The notes beneath the pieces were generated by a model. It made no database searches, was not told the DNA's origin, and saw only the letters and a list, made by a program, of their open reading frames with translations. Shown here piece after piece: positions 29,973 to 61,816 of a DNA stretch of 64,000 bases; positions within the stretch are counted from its first letter, which is position 1; every line of letters starts with the position of its first letter. Made by a program: the position numbers and the translations under genes. Origin of the DNA: an uncultured archaeon (GTDB lineage Archaea; Iainarchaeota; Iainarchaeia; Iainarchaeales; CSSED10-239); NCBI GenBank assembly GCA_964496765.1, contig CAZCAP010000002.1:33694-97693 (forward strand), read 5' to 3'.

Positions 29973-30069
29973 AAGTACCTTTTATATAGATTTTGGTAGC
30001 ATAAATTAATATTTAGTACCTCTACTTTTAATAATATTATATTATTAAAGAAAAATATAGTAAAATAAT

Positions 30070-30144
30070 AGCGGGGTGGGGCAGCCTGGAGTGCCCGTCG
30101 GGCTCATAACCCGAAGGTCGATGGTTCAAATCCATCCCCCGCTA
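30070..30144 (+). tRNA. Initiator tRNA-Met (CAU)
   Basis: AGCGGGGTGGGGCAGCCTGGAGTGCCCGTCGGGCTCATAACCCGAAGGTCGATGGTTCAAATCCATCCCCCGCTA. An A1:U72 pair and three consecutive G:C pairs closing the anticodon stem (GGG/CCC) are archaeal initiator hallmarks. Anticodon is CAT. Confidence 0.85.
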
Positions 30145-30190
30145 TAACTTTTTTTATAAAAACAACAATATATTTAAAAATAACGAGTTC

Positions 30191-30210
30191 TTGTTATATT
30201 TGTTGGACAC
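30191..30210 (+). repeat. Copy A of the dispersed 20-mer TTGTTATATTTGTTGGACAC, 46 nt downstream of tRNA-iMet
   Basis: Exact 20-mer. It is shared with copies at 42037..42056 (minus), 33859..33877 (minus, 19 nt), 38522..38541 (1 mismatch), 45975..45993 (minus, in coding sequence) and 63903..63922 (in coding sequence). Confidence 0.6.
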
Positions 30211-30376
30211 AAATTCTAATTATCAAACTAATTATTTAAAGGCCTTAAAAAACGCTAAACCATATAAAAAAGGGGAAAAAGCTCCTAATTTAGCAAAAAA
30301 GGAAAATAAGTGGTTAAAATCAAATATAAACCTATATAAAACCACAAAAGTAACTATATTTCATGGTAATTACTAG
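30191..30376 (+). CDS. Small ORF (61 aa, TTG start) beginning exactly at the 20-mer copy. Questionable as an independent gene.
   Basis: MLYLLDTNSNYQTNYLKALKNAKPYKK... The LLYLLD segment is encoded by the same 20-mer and in the same frame as the last codons of the HD gene at 33848..34756. Confidence 0.2.
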   Translation: MLYLLDTNSNYQTNYLKALKNAKPYKKGEKAPNLAKKENKWLKSNINLYKTTKVTIFHGNY

Positions 30377-30733
30377 TAATTTTAAAGTAATTACCTAAAA
30401 TTAGATTTAAAATAACTAAATAAACACACCACATATACATAAATTTAATAACTACTATAATTAAAATTATAAAAAGTAGCAGATATCATAAAAATAATGA
30501 TTTTTGTTATGTATCAACCACTGTAATTACTATAATTACCATATAAGCGCTTAAGTAATTACCAGCGTTACAGAAAGCTTTATAATAATTACGGTAATTA
30601 CTATAATAGATAACTATGAATTTAAAAGATATATTCAAAGGATTTACTAATATATTCAAATCCAGAAATAAACCAGATAACACAAATATCAACAATAAAA
30701 AAGATGGTAATTACCATAATGAACGTAATTACG
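30365..30733. repeat. Array of about 9 copies of the 8-bp palindrome GTAATTAC (several extended to 10-bp GGTAATTACC or CGTAATTACG). It resembles an iteron or operator array.
   Basis: Copies are at about 30366, 30387, 30523, 30533, 30555, 30586, 30594, 30706 and 30724. They span the 5' UTR and first codons of the wHTH-like gene. The motif is rare elsewhere in the window. Confidence 0.6.
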
Positions 30734-31236
30734 ATGAAATATTAAATTATTCAAAAGATATGATAGTTGATAAACTAAGTAAGGAAGAAATAAATTTTGA
30801 AAAGCTAAAGACAATATCAGAACATACATCAGTATACAATGAAAAAAAAATTAATGGAATGATTAAAAATGAAGAAATAACAGAAAGTATAATAAAAAAC
30901 ACATTATTAGAAAATAATAAAACAAATACAAATATTAGATCAATAACTGTTGAAAAATTACAAAATGAAATAAATACTGTTTGGGACATATTAAAAATTA
31001 AAGAAAACACGCAAGCAGAACATATAATTAAATCAACACCAGCTGATAAATGGGTTACAATGGATGAAATTAGAAACAATATCAAAATACAGTTTAATGT
31101 AGAGTATATTAATGAGAAAAGCTTATACCCTTACCTAAAAACACTAGTGGATATCAACCTAATAAAGGTGAATAATATAGGTAAAAAGAGAACTTGGAAA
31201 AAAAATATAATAGTTATTGAAAATAAAAGAAAGTAA
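30616..31236 (+). CDS. Hypothetical protein with C-terminal winged-helix-like region. It is a candidate DNA-binding or Rep-like protein of the accessory segment.
   Basis: 206 aa, N/K-rich. The C-terminus WVTMDEIRNNIKIQFNVEYINEKSLYPYLKTLVDINLIKV is HTH-like. The GTAATTAC array is immediately upstream and overlaps the 5' end. Confidence 0.4.
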   Translation: MNLKDIFKGFTNIFKSRNKPDNTNINNKKDGNYHNERNYDEILNYSKDMIVDKLSKEEINFEKLKTISEHTSVYNEKKINGMIKNEEITESIIKNTLLENNKTNTNIRSITVEKLQNEINTVWDILKIKENTQAEHIIKSTPADKWVTMDEIRNNIKIQFNVEYINEKSLYPYLKTLVDINLIKVNNIGKKRTWKKNIIVIENKRK

Positions 31237-31237
31237 T

Positions 31238-31852
31238 CTAAATATTATATTTCACTTTTAATTTATTATAGATTTCATAAAATTTTTGCAAATTATTCGA
31301 ATGTTTATAGCTTTCACTAAACCAGTTTGTATCTATTATTTTTTTCATAACATTTATCATAAGATTAATATAGTTTAGATTTAAATTATCTTTAGATAAA
31401 ATTAAATTAACCTCATCAAAAAGCTTAGTAGAGATATTTTCGTTATTGATTATTTTACAATCATTTATGTGAATTTCAATTGCTTTTATTATACTTTCTT
31501 CATCCACATCAATAAAATCTTTTTTATATTCAACACTCCAATTACCTTTGTTTTTCCAATTATGTGTTGGATTTTTACCAGTTTCAAAATATTCTATTAA
31601 TTCATTTTCACACCCAATAGGTAAAATTAATGAATTTTTACCTGATTTTATATAGGGTAGACTAGATATTACCCCATTTCTAAAATAATTATATATTTTG
31701 TTGTTTTTTTTAGTTACATTTTGGGTATATCCATATATAGATCTAAATACCTTTTGATATAAATATGATGAGTGGGCAGTATTTTCTATAAAAGAAAATT
31801 TATATTTAATTAGCACTGATCTAATTTTTGTCATATAAGAGACACCCCACAC
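31238..31852 (-). CDS. Hypothetical protein
   Basis: 204 aa ORF. The true start is possibly MTKIRSV. No recognised motifs. Confidence 0.4.
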   Translation of the reverse strand: MWGVSYMTKIRSVLIKYKFSFIENTAHSSYLYQKVFRSIYGYTQNVTKKNNKIYNYFRNGVISSLPYIKSGKNSLILPIGCENELIEYFETGKNPTHNWKNKGNWSVEYKKDFIDVDEESIIKAIEIHINDCKIINNENISTKLFDEVNLILSKDNLNLNYINLMINVMKKIIDTNWFSESYKHSNNLQKFYEIYNKLKVKYNI

Positions 31853-31940
31853 TTCCTGTATTGTGTATAATTAATAAATAAATAGTTGTTATGTATATAA
31901 TAATATATATATATAAAAGATAAAAAAAGAAGATAAAATC

Positions 31941-32315
31941 TTATCTTCTATGTGTTGATGCTGTTGAATATTTACTTCTATATCCTATATATTTTTTTCT
32001 AATATGTGCATCTTTTGAATTTTCTTGCTCTTCTTCTACTTCAGAAGCTGCAATTTTAGGTTTGTGTGTTGTTGGAACATTACCTGCATTAATTAAGATA
32101 ATATCATCAACAGAGATTACTTTATTATAAGGTATACTATGATCTGTTATTATCTTTTTAGCTTCAACCTTTGAATTAACCTTTAATGGTTGTGTTGTTA
32201 TTGTTTCAATAACACCTTGCTCTAAGTTAACTATGAGGTCATGTACCTTTCCCCTATATGTTGCATCTGTTTGATATAAATCCATACCAAATAGTTTTGA
32301 AATTCTTGTAGTCAT
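31941..32315 (-). CDS. PRC-barrel-like domain protein
   Basis: 124 aa. MTTRISKLFGMDLYQTDATYRGKVHDLIVNLEQGVIETITTQ parallels the PRC-barrel protein at 11844..12107. Confidence 0.45.
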   Translation of the reverse strand: MTTRISKLFGMDLYQTDATYRGKVHDLIVNLEQGVIETITTQPLKVNSKVEAKKIITDHSIPYNKVISVDDIILINAGNVPTTHKPKIAASEVEEEQENSKDAHIRKKYIGYRSKYSTASTHRR

Positions 32316-32519: not shown

Positions 32520-32981
32520 TCTTTTACTTATCGTAAAATCCCTACTTATTTGTTTTTTAAGAGTATCAATTTTGTTGGTTATATTAGATATAGTGGATTT
32601 TATAATATCCACTCTTCTCCTATATTCTTCATACATTTTATATTCGTGTGTTCTTGTTGTACTTGTTTTAGAATTTGTGACTTGCTTATTTAATTGTTTT
32701 ATATATTTATCTAGTTTTATACTACTATCCTTTAATTTCTTACTTAATTCTAGCTTATATTGCCCTAATCTTATAATTGTTATGTTTGTTTCCTGTACGT
32801 GTTGCTTTATCCATCTTTTTTTAGACTGTATTTCATTTTTTGTGGTTGTTGCATCTATGTTTTTTTCTTCAAATAATTTTTCTGTTTTTGCTTTTATACT
32901 ATTAACCTTTCTATTAAAATTATTTCCCCCTAATTTAAATCTTATCGCTTTTAATGCTATAAATCCACCTTTTCTTAATAA
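32520..32981 (-). CDS. 153-codon stop-free frame (K-rich, coiled-coil-like) lacking a canonical start. It is in the same frame as the upstream recombinase gene and separated from it only by that gene's TAA stop.
   Basis: Reverse-strand translation reads ...DNI* LLRKGGFIALKAIRFKLGGNNFNRKVNSIKAKTEKLFEEKNIDATTTKNEIQSKKRWIKQHVQ...YKMYEEYRRRVDIIKSTISNITNKIDTLKKQISRDFTISKR*. The only ATG is 37 codons from the end. A 150-codon open frame is improbable by chance in AT-rich DNA. Confidence 0.3.
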
Positions 32982-33842
32982 TTATATATTGTCCAACGGG
33001 TTTTTAATTTCTTTTAATTTATTAGTGTTTACTTTTGTGTATATTTGTGTAGTATTAAGATTAGCATGTCCTAATAATTGTTGTATATATCTTATGTTTA
33101 CATCATTTTCTAAAAGCGCGGTTGCAAACGAGTGCCTTAGCTTGTGTGGACTAACCGCTTTATTAATTCCTGCTTTTTTTGCAGATATTTTTAAAAATTT
33201 TTGAACCGTATCTGGAGATAATGTGGATCCCTCTTGATTACAAAATAAGTATTCTGATTTTTGTTTTTTCTCTCTTTCTTCTAAATATTTTTTATAATCA
33301 ACAACCCAATTTTTAGATAGTATTATTATTCTATCTTTATTTCCTTTACCAGAAACCACTTTTCCTGTATGCTCATTAAAATCAAGATCACTTATTTTCA
33401 TATTTATACATTCTGATATTCTAACTCCTGTTGAAAACATAAATTCTATAATTAGTTTATTTCTTTGGCTGCTTGTTGCATTAATTAGATCTTTGATTTC
33501 CTTTGGGGTTAGGGTAATTGGTATTTTATTTGATTTTTTAGGGAGCTTTATATTTAGCTCAAGTGGAGTCCTTAGAAATTCAGAATAAAAATGTTTAAGT
33601 GCAGATAATATTAGGTTAAGGGTAGCAGAACTAACTCCTTTTTTTGATTTAAGTTGTGATAAAAAATTAACAACATCATCTGATTTAACCTCTCTTAGAT
33701 CTTTTTCAATGTATTTTTGAAATATTCCTAGATACATAGAATACGTTTTTATTGTTTGCTCACTAAATCCCTCTATGTTTAATTCATTTTTGAATTTCGT
33801 TATTAATTCTTCGTTTTTAGTATTTACTTCCATAAATTTCAA
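32982..33842 (-). CDS. xerA: Tyrosine site-specific recombinase, XerA/XerC-D family
   Basis: The N-terminal core-binding domain reads FSEQTIKTYSMYLGIFQKY. The catalytic region contains HKLRHSFATALLENDVNIRYIQQLLGHANLNTTQIYTKV, the R..H..R...Y tyrosine recombinase motif. The likely real start is the ATG at 33833, since the ORF track start is TTG at 33842. Confidence 0.8.
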   Translation of the reverse strand: MKFMEVNTKNEELITKFKNELNIEGFSEQTIKTYSMYLGIFQKYIEKDLREVKSDDVVNFLSQLKSKKGVSSATLNLILSALKHFYSEFLRTPLELNIKLPKKSNKIPITLTPKEIKDLINATSSQRNKLIIEFMFSTGVRISECINMKISDLDFNEHTGKVVSGKGNKDRIIILSKNWVVDYKKYLEEREKKQKSEYLFCNQEGSTLSPDTVQKFLKISAKKAGINKAVSPHKLRHSFATALLENDVNIRYIQQLLGHANLNTTQIYTKVNTNKLKEIKNPLDNI

Positions 33843-33847
33843 CTCTT

Positions 33848-34756
33848 TTATTTTTTGTTGTCCAACAAATATAACAACTTATTGCTTGCTATGTATTTTG
33901 GGTTGATTTTTCTGTTTTTTCCAATAAACCCGGTATACTTTTTTGGAATTTTAATATTTTTTGTTTTTAATTTTTCAATGTTGTTAACAATCGTTTTATT
34001 ATTTGACTTTTTTATTCTTTCAAGTATATAGTCATCTGTTTTATTAAAATCATCTTCCTCAATTAATTTTAATTTTATTGCTTTTTTAAGTACTTTAACG
34101 AACATCATATAGTTTATCATGTGTTTTATTCCACCCCAATGATTCTCTGCAAAATACTTATAAACACCATAAAATTCTTTAGCACTCTTTTTATTTTTGA
34201 AAACAATTTCCCCATCAACAACTGTCAGGTTCTTATATAATGTTGTAACCTTTTTTTTATCTTTTTTAAAAAATAAGAGTTCTCTTAGTGTGTAATCAAT
34301 CCTATCAGCACAAAGGTCTGGTAGATTGTTTTCCAATAAAGTAAATCCCTTAAAGTCTGTTATATCTTTTATTTTATATTTATATTTCTTTAATATCTTC
34401 ATAATCTCTTTATTTTTTTTAATGTATTTTTCAAAAACATCATCCCCATGGGATTCATTATTATTGTTAATGTAATAATCATAAACATGTGAAAAAGCTG
34501 TGTGAGATATATCATGTAATAATCCAGCAATTTGTTCCTTTATTGGAGCGCCTAACCTATCCAATAACACCATCACCCCTATACTATGATCATATCTCAT
34601 GAATTCTACTCCATAATGCCATTCCTTAGGTAATCCTTGTTGTCTTATACCCTTAAGTCTCTGAACAGCTGGCGTTTTAATTAAATCAATAAGTACTTTT
34701 TCTTTAATCTTATGTTTTCCGTATACTGCATCTATTATTTCCATATAATCAACCAA
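33848..34756 (-). CDS. HD-domain metal-dependent phosphohydrolase
   Basis: 302 aa. The HD motif LLHDISHTAFSH follows the earlier His (YDHSIGV). The last codons (LLYLLDNKK*) are encoded by the 20-mer repeat. Confidence 0.7.
   Translation of the reverse strand: MVDYMEIIDAVYGKHKIKEKVLIDLIKTPAVQRLKGIRQQGLPKEWHYGVEFMRYDHSIGVMVLLDRLGAPIKEQIAGLLHDISHTAFSHVYDYYINNNNESHGDDVFEKYIKKNKEIMKILKKYKYKIKDITDFKGFTLLENNLPDLCADRIDYTLRELLFFKKDKKKVTTLYKNLTVVDGEIVFKNKKSAKEFYGVYKYFAENHWGGIKHMINYMMFVKVLKKAIKLKLIEEDDFNKTDDYILERIKKSNNKTIVNNIEKLKTKNIKIPKKYTGFIGKNRKINPKYIASNKLLYLLDNKK
33859..33877 (-). repeat. Copy B of the dispersed 20-mer (TTGTTATATTTGTTGGACA on the minus strand). It encodes the last codons of the HD gene and lies about 32 nt upstream of the recombinase ATG.
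   Basis: Direct sequence match. It is in inverted orientation relative to copy A at 30191..30210. Confidence 0.6.
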
Positions 34757-38521: not shown

Positions 38522-38541
38522 TTGTTATATTTCTTGGACAC
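38522..38541 (+). repeat. Copy D of the dispersed 20-mer (TTGTTATATTTCTTGGACAC, one mismatch), 7 nt after the dut stop and 115 nt before the KaiC-like gene
   Basis: Direct sequence match to 30191..30210 at 19 of 20 positions. Confidence 0.6.
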
Positions 38542-42036: not shown

Positions 42037-42056
42037 GTGTCCAACAAATATAACAA
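42037..42056 (-). repeat. Copy C of the dispersed 20-mer (exact TTGTTATATTTGTTGGACAC on the minus strand), about 40 nt upstream of the cdc48 ATG and about 125 nt downstream of the topA stop
   Basis: Direct sequence match to 30191..30210 in reverse orientation. Confidence 0.6.
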
Positions 42057-61778: not shown

Positions 61779-61816
61779 TTTCTTCTCCTATTTATTTTTT
61801 TTGGACATGAAAGAAT

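What the first reader, a model, noticed from the sequence alone, without database searches (positions are those of the whole stretch)
30365..30733. Dense array of GTAATTAC palindromes (about 9 copies in 370 bp) across the 5' region of a wHTH-like gene
GTAATTAC is self-complementary. The copies are spaced irregularly at 10-30 bp, several extended to perfect 10-bp palindromes (GGTAATTACC, CGTAATTACG), and the array runs from the upstream intergenic DNA into the first 40 codons of the 206-aa gene.

This organisation is typical of iterons or operators bound by a dimeric DNA-binding protein, as at plasmid or viral origins or at autoregulated repressors. The adjacent protein ends in an HTH-like segment. 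Together with the tRNA-adjacent position and the recombinase gene, this suggests a replication or partition origin, or the control region of an integrated element.
Basis: seen in the sequence. Interest (0 to 1): 0.7.

Follow-up and report, generated by a model that had tools for sequence, protein, structure and literature searches.

The report
Conserved operator array, orphan archaeal regulator
A cluster of short palindromes covers the promoter and first codons of a small DNA-binding protein gene, and the same pairing recurs across a whole phylum of tiny archaea (Iainarchaeota), so it is most likely the protein's own binding-site array and not a replication origin or an integrated element.

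Summary
Seven exact GTAATTAC copies and two one-mismatch copies lie in 30366-30732, against 1.3 expected in the whole 64-kb window.

The adjacent 206-aa gene encodes an orphan family found almost only in Iainarchaeota (DPANN archaea). It has a conserved cationic amphipathic N-terminal helix, a variable disordered linker and a confidently predicted C-terminal winged helix.

GTAATTAC lies just upstream of this gene in 76 of 80 related genomes, including 42-49% GC genomes where those are often the only copies in 20 kb. One site is fused to a TATA-like box at the position where this phylum's promoters normally carry it. Site spacings follow a 10.4-bp helical period.

The best reading is a cooperative, autoregulatory operator array bound by the gene's own product.

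- **Integrated element:** rejected. The initiator-like tRNA-Met, Trm56, TFE, a PRC-barrel gene and a XerA-type recombinase are syntenic across the phylum.
- **Replication origin:** unsupported. There is no orc1/cdc6 nearby, no skew turn, and the Forterrea origin was mapped beside cdc6.
- **Still open:** some lineages carry extra site clusters in non-promoter gaps. With the membrane-anchor-like N-terminus, this leaves a centromere-like or tethering role possible.

Nothing here shows binding directly.

The parts
30069..30145 (+). tRNA-Met(CAT), initiator-like. It is a conserved upstream neighbour, not an integration target.
   Evidence: ARAGORN and Rfam at 62.5 bits. A tRNA-Met lies directly upstream of the homologous gene in 22/22 loci scanned.
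30366..30394 (.). Distal site pair: GTAATTAC at 30366-30373 and 30387-30394, 21 bp apart, with a degenerate copy at 30376-30383.
   Evidence: A distal pair spaced 12 or 21 bp lies about 185-266 bp before the ATG in relatives.
30395..30522 (.). 128-bp spacer between the distal and proximal clusters, 18% GC.
   Evidence: It is not more A+T-rich than other intergenic gaps of the window (16-32% GC).
30523..30601 (.). Proximal cluster. Exact sites start at 30523, 30555 and 30594; one-mismatch sites start at 30532 and 30585. Two composites form, GTAATTACtATAATTAC and ATAATTACgGTAATTAC.
   Evidence: Composites recur every 30-32 bp in relatives.
30579..30586 (+). TATA-like box TTTATAAT, fused to the last site pair. 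The ATG lies 37 nt downstream of its first base.
   Evidence: The TATA-like box plus GTAATTAC arrangement is conserved phylum-wide. TATA-like hexamers peak at -30 from the ATG in 683 ORFs of these genomes.
30616..31236 (+). Gene for the 206-aa orphan winged-helix protein.
   Evidence: It has 91 homologues and 149 genome loci, but only 37 clusters among 1.84 billion representatives. No Pfam, NCBIfam or PDB sequence match.
30616..30660 (+). Codons 1-15: conserved cationic amphipathic N-terminal helix (MNLKDIFKGFTNIFK).
   Evidence: AF2 helix at residues 3-14. Median hydrophobic moment is 0.69 and net charge +4 over the first 22 residues in 113 family members. F14 is nearly invariant.
30707..30732 (.). 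Two in-gene sites, 30707-30714 (GNY codons) and 30725-30732 (RNY codons). Both are perfect 10-bp palindromes.
   Evidence: In-gene pairs occur in two clades only, in 4 of 45 loci with a confident start codon.
30979..31218 (+). Winged-helix DNA-binding domain, about residues 122-201. Recognition helix KSLYPYLKTL, wing GKKRTWKK.
   Evidence: pLDDT above 90 with an H-H-H-wing topology. Foldseek returns only generic winged-helix hits such as Fur, PerR, BlaI, ArsR and PadR, best E 7.9e-4. Invariant residues are listed.
31238..31852 (-). Convergent conserved gene of unknown function (p204).
31941..32315 (-). PRC-barrel protein gene, a conserved neighbour.
   Evidence: Pfam PRC, E 6.2e-7. Present within 7 kb in 68/80 loci.
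32982..33842 (-). XerA-type tyrosine recombinase gene, a conserved neighbour.
   Evidence: NCBIfam recomb_XerA_Arch equivalog, 278.9 bits against a cut-off of 220. Present within 7 kb in 62/80 loci.

Best explanation
The GTAATTAC copies are the binding sites of the winged-helix protein encoded immediately downstream. The core consequence is autoregulation.

**Inferred mechanism.** The last site pair lies between the TATA-like box and the start codon. Protein bound there should block recruitment of TFB and RNA polymerase. Further copies lie upstream, and in this clade also inside the first 40 codons. They are spaced in multiples of one helical turn, so bound proteins would sit on one face of the DNA. 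They could then bind cooperatively or loop the DNA, giving tight, switch-like control of the protein's own level.

**Shown here:** the array, its phylum-wide association with the gene, its position relative to the promoter, its helical phasing and the winged-helix fold.

**Inferred, not shown:** that this protein binds these sites, its stoichiometry, and the direction of regulation.
For: 1. **Local enrichment.** Seven exact and two near copies lie in 368 bp, against 1.3 expected per 64 kb.
2. **Co-occurrence.** GTAATTAC lies within about 1.2 kb upstream of the conserved domain in 76/80 genome loci. Three of the four exceptions are cut at a contig end. Most 42-49% GC loci have no other copy in the fetched locus. 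Density is 3.15 per kb near the gene and 0.086 per kb elsewhere over 1.1 Mb.
3. **Promoter geometry.** A TATA-like box directly abuts a site in lineages from 20 to 49% GC, and the ATG follows the site by 12-28 nt in most loci, with modes at 15, 21 and 24. TATA-like hexamers peak sharply at -30 from the ATG in 683 ORFs of these genomes, which suggests mostly leaderless mRNAs.
4. **Helical phasing.** 105 adjacent spacings from 47 non-identical loci give a mean resultant length of 0.805 at a 10.4-bp period. None of 5000 random sets exceeded 0.33.
5. **Fold.** The C-terminal domain is a confident winged helix.
6. **Parallel conservation.** The recognition helix and wing are almost invariant, and so is the DNA motif.
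7. **DNA-level constraint.** In-gene copies fall in the variable, disordered part of the protein as [G/S/R]NY codons. Mis-called N-terminal extensions in two homologues translate upstream repeats as VIT or GNY.
Against: - No binding data exist. The protein-site link rests on co-occurrence alone.
- An 8-bp palindrome is short for a classical helix-turn-helix dimer, so stoichiometry is unclear.
- Some lineages carry clusters where no promoter is expected. Three sites fill the convergent gap beside the 3' end of p204 (L005-L008, L031, L038, L044), and a pair abuts the 5' end of tRNA-Lys(CUU). Simple promoter occlusion does not explain these.
- Seven to nine sites is many for a gene whose only evident target is itself.
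- In the window the TATA-like box starts at -37 rather than -30, which would imply a short leader.
Confidence: 0.6

Rival explanations
1. The array is a centromere-like or tethering element. The protein binds the phased array as a higher-order complex. Its N-terminal amphipathic helix, held on a flexible linker, attaches this chromosomal locus to the membrane or to a division or segregation partner. This would resemble Noc-NBS or ParB-parS. Autoregulation would then be a side effect of the sites lying on the gene's own promoter.
For: - The architecture is a conserved cationic amphipathic N-terminal helix, a variable-length disordered linker and a DNA-binding domain.
- Site clusters occur in non-promoter positions and within coding sequence, spread over 3-4 kb around the gene in several lineages.
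- Helical phasing is strong.
- The conserved neighbours include XerA and a PRC-barrel protein. PRC-barrel proteins act in archaeal division in Haloferax (bioRxiv 10.1101/2023.03.28.534520).
- If the deposited Forterrea record starts at the published origin, the locus lies about 8% of the genome from it (PMC5905446).
Against: - No ParA/SegA-type ATPase is conserved at the locus.
- The amphipathic helix could equally be a protein-interaction or dimerisation element.
- The extra clusters are lineage-specific. The only universal sites are those at the promoter.
- Gene neighbourhood is circumstantial evidence.
Confidence: 0.2
2. The sites belong to another factor, or are promoter elements in their own right, and the winged-helix gene is only the regulated target.
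For: - The TAATTA core is TATA-like, and one copy is fused to the TATA-like box.
- In one clade, pairs also abut a tRNA-Lys gene.
- Nothing here shows which protein binds.
Against: - The invariant outer G and C, and the YR...YR flanks, argue for specific recognition rather than TBP binding.
- The motif is essentially confined to this gene's surroundings.
- The gene's product is a sequence-conserved DNA-binding domain restricted to the same phylum. This pattern is typical of cognate pairs.
Confidence: 0.12
3. The array is a secondary chromosomal replication origin with its own winged-helix initiator, analogous to WhiP at Sulfolobus oriC3. Site clusters would flank an A+T-rich unwinding element.
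For: - Two site clusters flank a 128-bp spacer of 18% GC.
- A winged-helix gene is adjacent.
- Replication and repair genes are frequent in the window: PolD small subunit, RFC, RNR, dUTPase, MutS/L and topoisomerase.
Against: - No Orc1/Cdc6 was found among the window ORFs scanned.
- The spacer is no more A+T-rich than other gaps.
- GC skew follows gene orientation and has no turning point at 30.4 kb.
- Forterrea shows a single origin-to-terminus skew pattern with the origin beside cdc6 (PMC5905446), and the homologous locus is elsewhere.
- The motif is unlike ORB elements.
- In distant lineages the sites collapse onto the promoter alone.
Confidence: 0.05
4. The array is the control or attachment region of an element integrated next to the tRNA, with the recombinase as its integrase.
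For: - A tRNA gene lies 220 bp upstream and a tyrosine recombinase 2.3 kb downstream.
- A perfect 19-nt inverted repeat (30191-30209 and 33859-33877) brackets the four genes.
Against: - The whole block (Trm56, TFE, tRNA-Met, winged-helix gene, p204, PRC, Xer) is syntenic across the phylum.
- The recombinase is a XerA equivalog.
- The 19-mer arms are two copies of a motif that is common just after genes in these genomes.
- No direct repeat of the tRNA 3' end was found.
Confidence: 0.02

Closest known systems
Autoregulated archaeal winged-helix repressors that bind at or just downstream of the TATA box. Examples from my own knowledge are MDR1, LrpA, Phr and Lrs14. Stf76 of pSSVx binds two sites in its own promoter (PMC4027180 abstract).
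   Same: A small winged-helix protein with palindromic sites on its own promoter between the TATA box and the start. The expected mechanism is promoter occlusion.
   Different: There is no sequence relationship to any of these families. This locus has 5-10 helically phased sites rather than 1-2, sites inside the coding region or beyond the gene in some lineages, and a conserved N-terminal amphipathic helix on a disordered linker.
Fur-family boxes, which are overlapping A+T-rich hexamer or 7-1-7 arrays such as the B. subtilis Zur box TCGTAAT-N-ATTACGA (from my own knowledge).
   Same: The best fold matches are Fur, PerR and Nur DNA-binding domains. The half-site GTAAT/ATTAC is shared. The composite TAATTAC-N-GTAATTA is a 7-1-7 inverted repeat, and the arrays overlap promoters.
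   Different: Pfam FUR gives no hit. There is no metal-binding or dimerisation domain, and the DNA-binding domain is C-terminal. The half-sites face the opposite way from the Zur box. Fold similarity is weak, with E about 1e-3 and TM about 0.4.
MetJ and its tandem 8-bp palindromic metboxes (from my own knowledge).
   Same: Arrays of an 8-bp palindrome are bound cooperatively by repeated units of one repressor at its own and target promoters.
   Different: MetJ is a ribbon-helix-helix protein and metboxes are contiguous. Here the fold is a winged helix, and spacing varies in steps of a helical turn.
ParB-parS and Noc-NBS (from my own knowledge).
   Same: Clusters of a short palindrome lie in and around the gene of the protein that binds them, including within coding DNA. 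Noc has an N-terminal amphipathic helix that tethers DNA to the membrane.
   Different: There is no ParB/Noc homology, no CTPase domain and no partner ATPase gene at the locus. The sites are 8-12 bp rather than 16 bp. Any membrane binding is purely inferred.
Plasmid and phage iterons with winged-helix Rep initiators.
   Same: Repeated sites lie next to a winged-helix gene and overlap its promoter.
   Different: Iterons are direct repeats of 17-22 bp at a fixed spacing. GTAATTAC-containing arrays of that evenly spaced kind turned up in unrelated viral and metagenome contigs. Here only an 8-12-bp palindrome recurs, at variable phased spacing. The protein has one winged helix, and the locus is chromosomal and syntenic.
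Archaeal ORB elements with Orc1/Cdc6, and WhiP at oriC3.
   Same: Repeated dyad-symmetric sites flank A+T-rich DNA next to a winged-helix gene.
   Different: There is no AAA+ initiator nearby, no ORB-like sequence, no skew turn, and the mapped origin in a related complete genome is elsewhere.

Membership tests
Autoregulatory operator of a winged-helix transcription factor (functional class) | The adjacent gene encodes a DNA-binding fold. | tested here: met
   The AF2 winged helix has pLDDT above 90. Foldseek returns winged-helix DNA-binding domains.
Autoregulatory operator of a winged-helix transcription factor (functional class) | The sites overlap the gene's own core promoter. | tested here: met
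   The TATA-like box plus GTAATTAC arrangement is conserved, 12-28 nt before the ATG in most loci. The genome-wide TATA peak is at -30. The promoter is inferred from sequence, not mapped.
Autoregulatory operator of a winged-helix transcription factor (functional class) | The motif and the gene co-occur across genomes. | tested here: met
   76/80 loci carry the motif, with 37-fold enrichment near the gene.
Autoregulatory operator of a winged-helix transcription factor (functional class) | The protein binds the sites and changes its own transcription. | not testable with these tools
   This needs EMSA or footprinting and in vitro transcription.
Known wHTH families (Fur, MarR, PadR, ArsR, TrmB, Lrp/AsnC and others) | A significant match to the family profile. 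| tested here: not met
   Pfam gives only a sub-threshold Mnd1 HTH hit, 13.8 bits against a cut-off of 23.5. NCBIfam has none and the PDB profile search has none at E up to 10. The exhaustive HMM search finds only the family itself.
Iteron/Rep replication origin | Direct repeats of about 17-22 bp at a regular spacing. | tested here: not met
   Only the 8-12-bp palindrome recurs. Start-to-start spacings in the window are 21, 136, 9, 23, 30, 9, 113 and 18 bp.
Iteron/Rep replication origin | The locus is an extrachromosomal or mobile replicon. | tested here: not met
   The chromosomal housekeeping context is conserved across the phylum.
Archaeal oriC (ORB plus Orc1/Cdc6) | An adjacent orc1/cdc6 gene or other initiator with a loader domain. 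| tested here: not met
   None was found within +/-10 kb or among the other large ORFs of the window that were scanned.
Archaeal oriC (ORB plus Orc1/Cdc6) | An unusually A+T-rich unwinding element between inverted sites. | tested here: inconclusive
   The spacer is 18% GC, and other intergenic gaps are 16-32%.
Archaeal oriC (ORB plus Orc1/Cdc6) | Strand-compositional skew turns at the site. | tested here: not met
   There is no turning point at 30.4 kb in the 64-kb window. Whole-genome skew could not be computed here.
ParB-parS / Noc-type centromere or tether | ParB/Noc homology (ParB N-terminal CTPase plus HTH). | tested here: not met
   No Pfam or NCBIfam match.
ParB-parS / Noc-type centromere or tether | A partner ParA/SegA ATPase at the locus. 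| tested here: not met
   No such gene is a conserved neighbour.
ParB-parS / Noc-type centromere or tether | A membrane-targeting amphipathic helix that is functional. | tested here: inconclusive
   The sequence features fit: hydrophobic moment 0.69, charge +4, conserved. Membrane binding was not tested.
Integrated mobile element (att site plus integrase next to a tRNA) | Presence and absence vary among related genomes, and a direct repeat of the tRNA end bounds the element. | tested here: not met
   Synteny holds in 62-70 of 80 loci. tRNA-Met is adjacent in 22/22 loci. No such repeat was found. The recombinase is a XerA equivalog.
Xer dif site | An imperfect inverted repeat of 11-bp arms with a 6-8-bp spacer containing TAA(N6-8)TTA (PMC8371274, PMC11840125). 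| tested here: not met
   GTAATTAC and its composites (8-1-8) do not have this form.

The most novel reading that the evidence does not exclude
The protein is a minimal, Iainarchaeota-specific chromosome tether. Many copies would assemble on the helically phased GTAATTAC clusters in and around its own gene. The N-terminal amphipathic helix, on a flexible linker, would anchor that locus to the membrane or divisome. The gene is encoded beside XerA and a CdpB-like PRC-barrel protein. This would be an archaeal, non-ParB counterpart of Noc or a centromere, in organisms with no known segregation system.
Probability: 0.15. Interest if true: 0.8.

Novelty: new member of a known kind. Interest (0 to 1): 0.48.

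Why it matters
Almost nothing is known about gene regulation or chromosome handling in DPANN archaea, which are uncultivated and have very few recognisable regulators.

This locus offers a concrete, testable protein-DNA pair. The partners are an orphan winged-helix family and an invariant 8-12-bp palindrome, conserved together across genomes from 20 to 49% GC. The site grammar is unusually clear: fusion to the TATA-like box and 10.4-bp phasing.

Both partners can be synthesised and tested in vitro without culturing the organism. The motif also marks a conserved landmark locus for Iainarchaeota genomes.

If the N-terminal helix proves to be a membrane anchor, the system would bear on how minimal archaea position or segregate their chromosome.

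Tried and rejected
1. **Integrated element or invertible segment.** A perfect 19-nt inverted repeat (30191-30209 and 33859-33877) brackets the four genes. Its arms proved to be two copies of a widespread motif (ACACaAATTCTTGGACA) that sits just after genes on the coding strand. No comparable bracket is conserved in other loci.
2. **Hairpin around TTGGACA.** No covariation was found.
3. **Array census in public contigs.** I scanned viral and metagenome contigs for three GTAATTAC copies 20-42 bp apart. This gave 35 and at least 119 stretches, most of them evenly spaced tandem repeats, and only 2 of all 154 stretches fetched (both metagenome contigs) carried the winged-helix gene.
4. **RNA element.** Rfam finds only the tRNAs.
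5. **dif site.** The motif does not fit the 11-6-11 / TAA(N6-8)TTA form (PMC8371274, PMC11840125).
6. **Literature.** No paper links GTAATTAC to archaeal regulation or describes this family.
8. **Phage-protein families.** Only a weak hit of unknown function, E 0.0035.
9. **Sigma-70 promoter scan.** Not applicable to an archaeon, so ignored.

Full report
**The observation**

The window is 29% GC archaeal DNA, with aTrm56, TFE, PolD, RFC and XerA genes.

GTAATTAC occurs 10 times in the window, against 1.29 expected from shuffles. Seven copies fall in 30366-30732, and two ATAATTAC variants lie among them. The chance of such a cluster is about 2e-19.

The copies form three groups:
- a distal pair at 30366 and 30387;
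- a proximal group at 30523, 30532, 30555, 30585 and 30594, which ends 15 nt before the ATG at 30616;
- two copies inside codons 31-39.

Only the two in-gene copies are perfect 10-bp palindromes.

**The protein**

The 206-aa product matches no Pfam family above its cut-off and has no match in NCBIfam or among PDB sequences.

It has 91 homologues in a 5.8-billion-protein collection. Relatives are encoded at 149 places in GTDB species genomes. Among the 80 loci kept, nearly all come from Iainarchaeota/Diapherotrites or unclassified archaeal bins, including the complete genome of Ca. Forterrea multitransposorum. Four are labelled as bacteria; the one examined (L002) shows the same archaeal synteny, so it looks mis-binned.

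An exhaustive profile search of 1.84 billion representatives finds only 37 clusters, 36 of them below E = 1e-10. The family is therefore sharply bounded.

Alignments show three parts:
- a short conserved N-terminal peptide;
- a variable N/Q-rich linker;
- a roughly 90-residue C-terminal domain with many invariant residues.

AlphaFold2 predicts the C-terminal domain as a winged helix with pLDDT above 90, and the linker as disordered. Foldseek returns only generic winged-helix DNA-binding domains (Fur, PerR, BlaI, ArsR, PadR), best E 7.9e-4.

The N-terminal peptide is a cationic amphipathic helix. Its median hydrophobic moment is 0.69 and its net charge +4 over 113 members.

**Comparative evidence for a cognate pair**

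- In 76 of 80 loci GTAATTAC lies just upstream of the conserved domain. Three of the four exceptions are truncated by a contig end.
- In most 42-49% GC genomes these are the only copies in the fetched locus.
- Density is 3.15 per kb near the gene and 0.086 per kb in the remaining 1.1 Mb.
- Flanking bases extend the consensus to YRGTAATTACYR.
- Relative to the start codon the layout is conserved. A TATA-like box is fused to a site 12-28 nt before the ATG in most loci. Composite units (ATAATTAC-N-GTAATTAC) recur every 30-32 bp, and a distal pair lies about 185-266 bp upstream.
- In 683 ORFs from these genomes, TATA-like hexamers peak sharply at -30 from the ATG. This suggests mostly leaderless mRNAs and places the proximal site between the TATA box and the transcription start.
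- Adjacent spacings cluster at 10, 21, 30-32, 41, 51-53 and 61-63 bp. The mean resultant length is 0.805 at a 10.4-bp period, and none of 5000 random sets came close. The sites therefore lie on one face of the helix.

**Context**

tRNA-Met lies directly upstream in 22 of 22 loci scanned. The number of loci (of 80) with each neighbour within 7 kb is as follows (confirmed):

| Neighbour | Loci with it |
|---|---|
| TFE | 70 |
| PRC-barrel gene | 68 |
| Trm56 | 67 |
| Tyrosine recombinase | 62 |
| p204 (unknown function) | 40 |

The recombinase passes the XerA equivalog cut-off. This is a conserved chromosomal neighbourhood, not an integrated element.

The 19-nt perfect inverted repeat that brackets the block consists of two copies of a motif common just after genes.

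**Origin hypothesis**

- No Orc1/Cdc6 was found among the window ORFs scanned.
- The spacer between the clusters is not unusually A+T-rich.
- GC skew has no turning point at the site.
- In Forterrea the origin was placed by skew and Z-curve beside cdc6 (PMC5905446). The homologous locus lies at about 770 of 840 kb. I could not verify where the deposited record starts.

**What simple autoregulation does not explain**

Several lineages carry additional clusters where no promoter is expected:
- three sites in the convergent gap beside the 3' end of p204;
- a pair abutting tRNA-Lys(CUU);
- five sites upstream of mutS in one contig.

In-gene pairs occur in two clades.

These clusters, the tether-like architecture of the protein, and the XerA and PRC-barrel neighbours keep a centromere-like or membrane-tethering role open. 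PRC-barrel proteins act in haloarchaeal division (bioRxiv 10.1101/2023.03.28.534520). I rate this role at about 0.15-0.2.

**Verdict**

The finding is real and non-random. It is best explained as the cooperative, autoregulatory binding-site array of an uncharacterised, phylum-specific winged-helix protein.

It is a new member of a known kind of system, with unusual site grammar. Binding itself remains untested.

Noticed in passing
window 30191-30209 (+), 33859-33877 (-), 38533-38540 (+), 42038-42044 (-), 61801-61807 (+); many sites in L001-L080: An orientation-specific motif, ACACaAATTCTTGGACAaAttt, recurs 187 times in 1.24 Mb of Iainarchaeota DNA. Of the 100 intergenic copies, 41% lie within 60 nt after a same-strand stop codon (most often 0-20 nt) and 1% lie within 60 nt before a start. 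There is no hairpin covariation. It may be a 3'-end or termination signal. Two copies form the perfect 19-nt inverted repeat around the four-gene block.
   Followed up: partly
window 31845-31856 (- strand) and about 31895-31930; L052, L043, L072 and others: A 12-mer, GGAAGTGTGGGG, is conserved in 27 loci about 10-22 nt before the p204 start codon. About 45 nt further upstream lies an inverted repeat, CTTTTATGTAT-ATATATA-ATACATAAAAG. It is a perfect 11-7-11 repeat in L052 and degenerate in the window. In a few loci the 12-mer lies on the other strand between the PRC and Xer genes, followed by CTTCC. It does not look like dif by the TAA(N6-8)TTA criterion.
   Followed up: partly
[not shown]
   Followed up: partly
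L001-L080 and window, upstream regions of 683 ORFs: TATA-like hexamers peak sharply at -30/-29 from the ATG, 102 against about 20 per 2-nt bin. A weaker Shine-Dalgarno-like signal lies at -13 to -9. This suggests that most Iainarchaeota mRNAs are leaderless.
   Followed up: partly
window 32520-32980 (-): The 666-bp gap between the XerA and PRC genes reads as an open, coiled-coil-like frame ending at 32520, with no called start. In a relative (L238 9995-10495) a 166-aa gene occupies this position. The window may hold a gene with an unusual start codon, or a degraded gene.
   Followed up: no
L035, L038, L039, L044 (pair upstream of tRNA-Lys(CUU)); L005-L008, L031, L038, L044 (gap beside the p204 3' end); L002 2099-2190: Lineage-specific extra GTAATTAC clusters lie away from the winged-helix promoter. 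A pair ends 0-20 nt before the 5' end of tRNA-Lys(CUU). Three phased sites lie in the convergent gap next to p204. Five sites lie between mutS and tRNA-Phe in one contig.
   Followed up: partly
window 30069-30145 (+): The tRNA-Met has initiator-like features, read by eye: an A at position 1 and a GGG/CCC anticodon stem. It sits in a conserved Trm56-TFE-tRNA-Met arrangement in every locus scanned.
   Followed up: no
L084-L237 (viral and metagenome contigs): Many unrelated contigs, including giant-virus bins, carry evenly spaced tandem repeats of 20-42 bp period that happen to contain GTAATTAC, for example L085, L090, L105 and L222. They look like iteron or satellite repeats and are unrelated to this family.
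   Followed up: no
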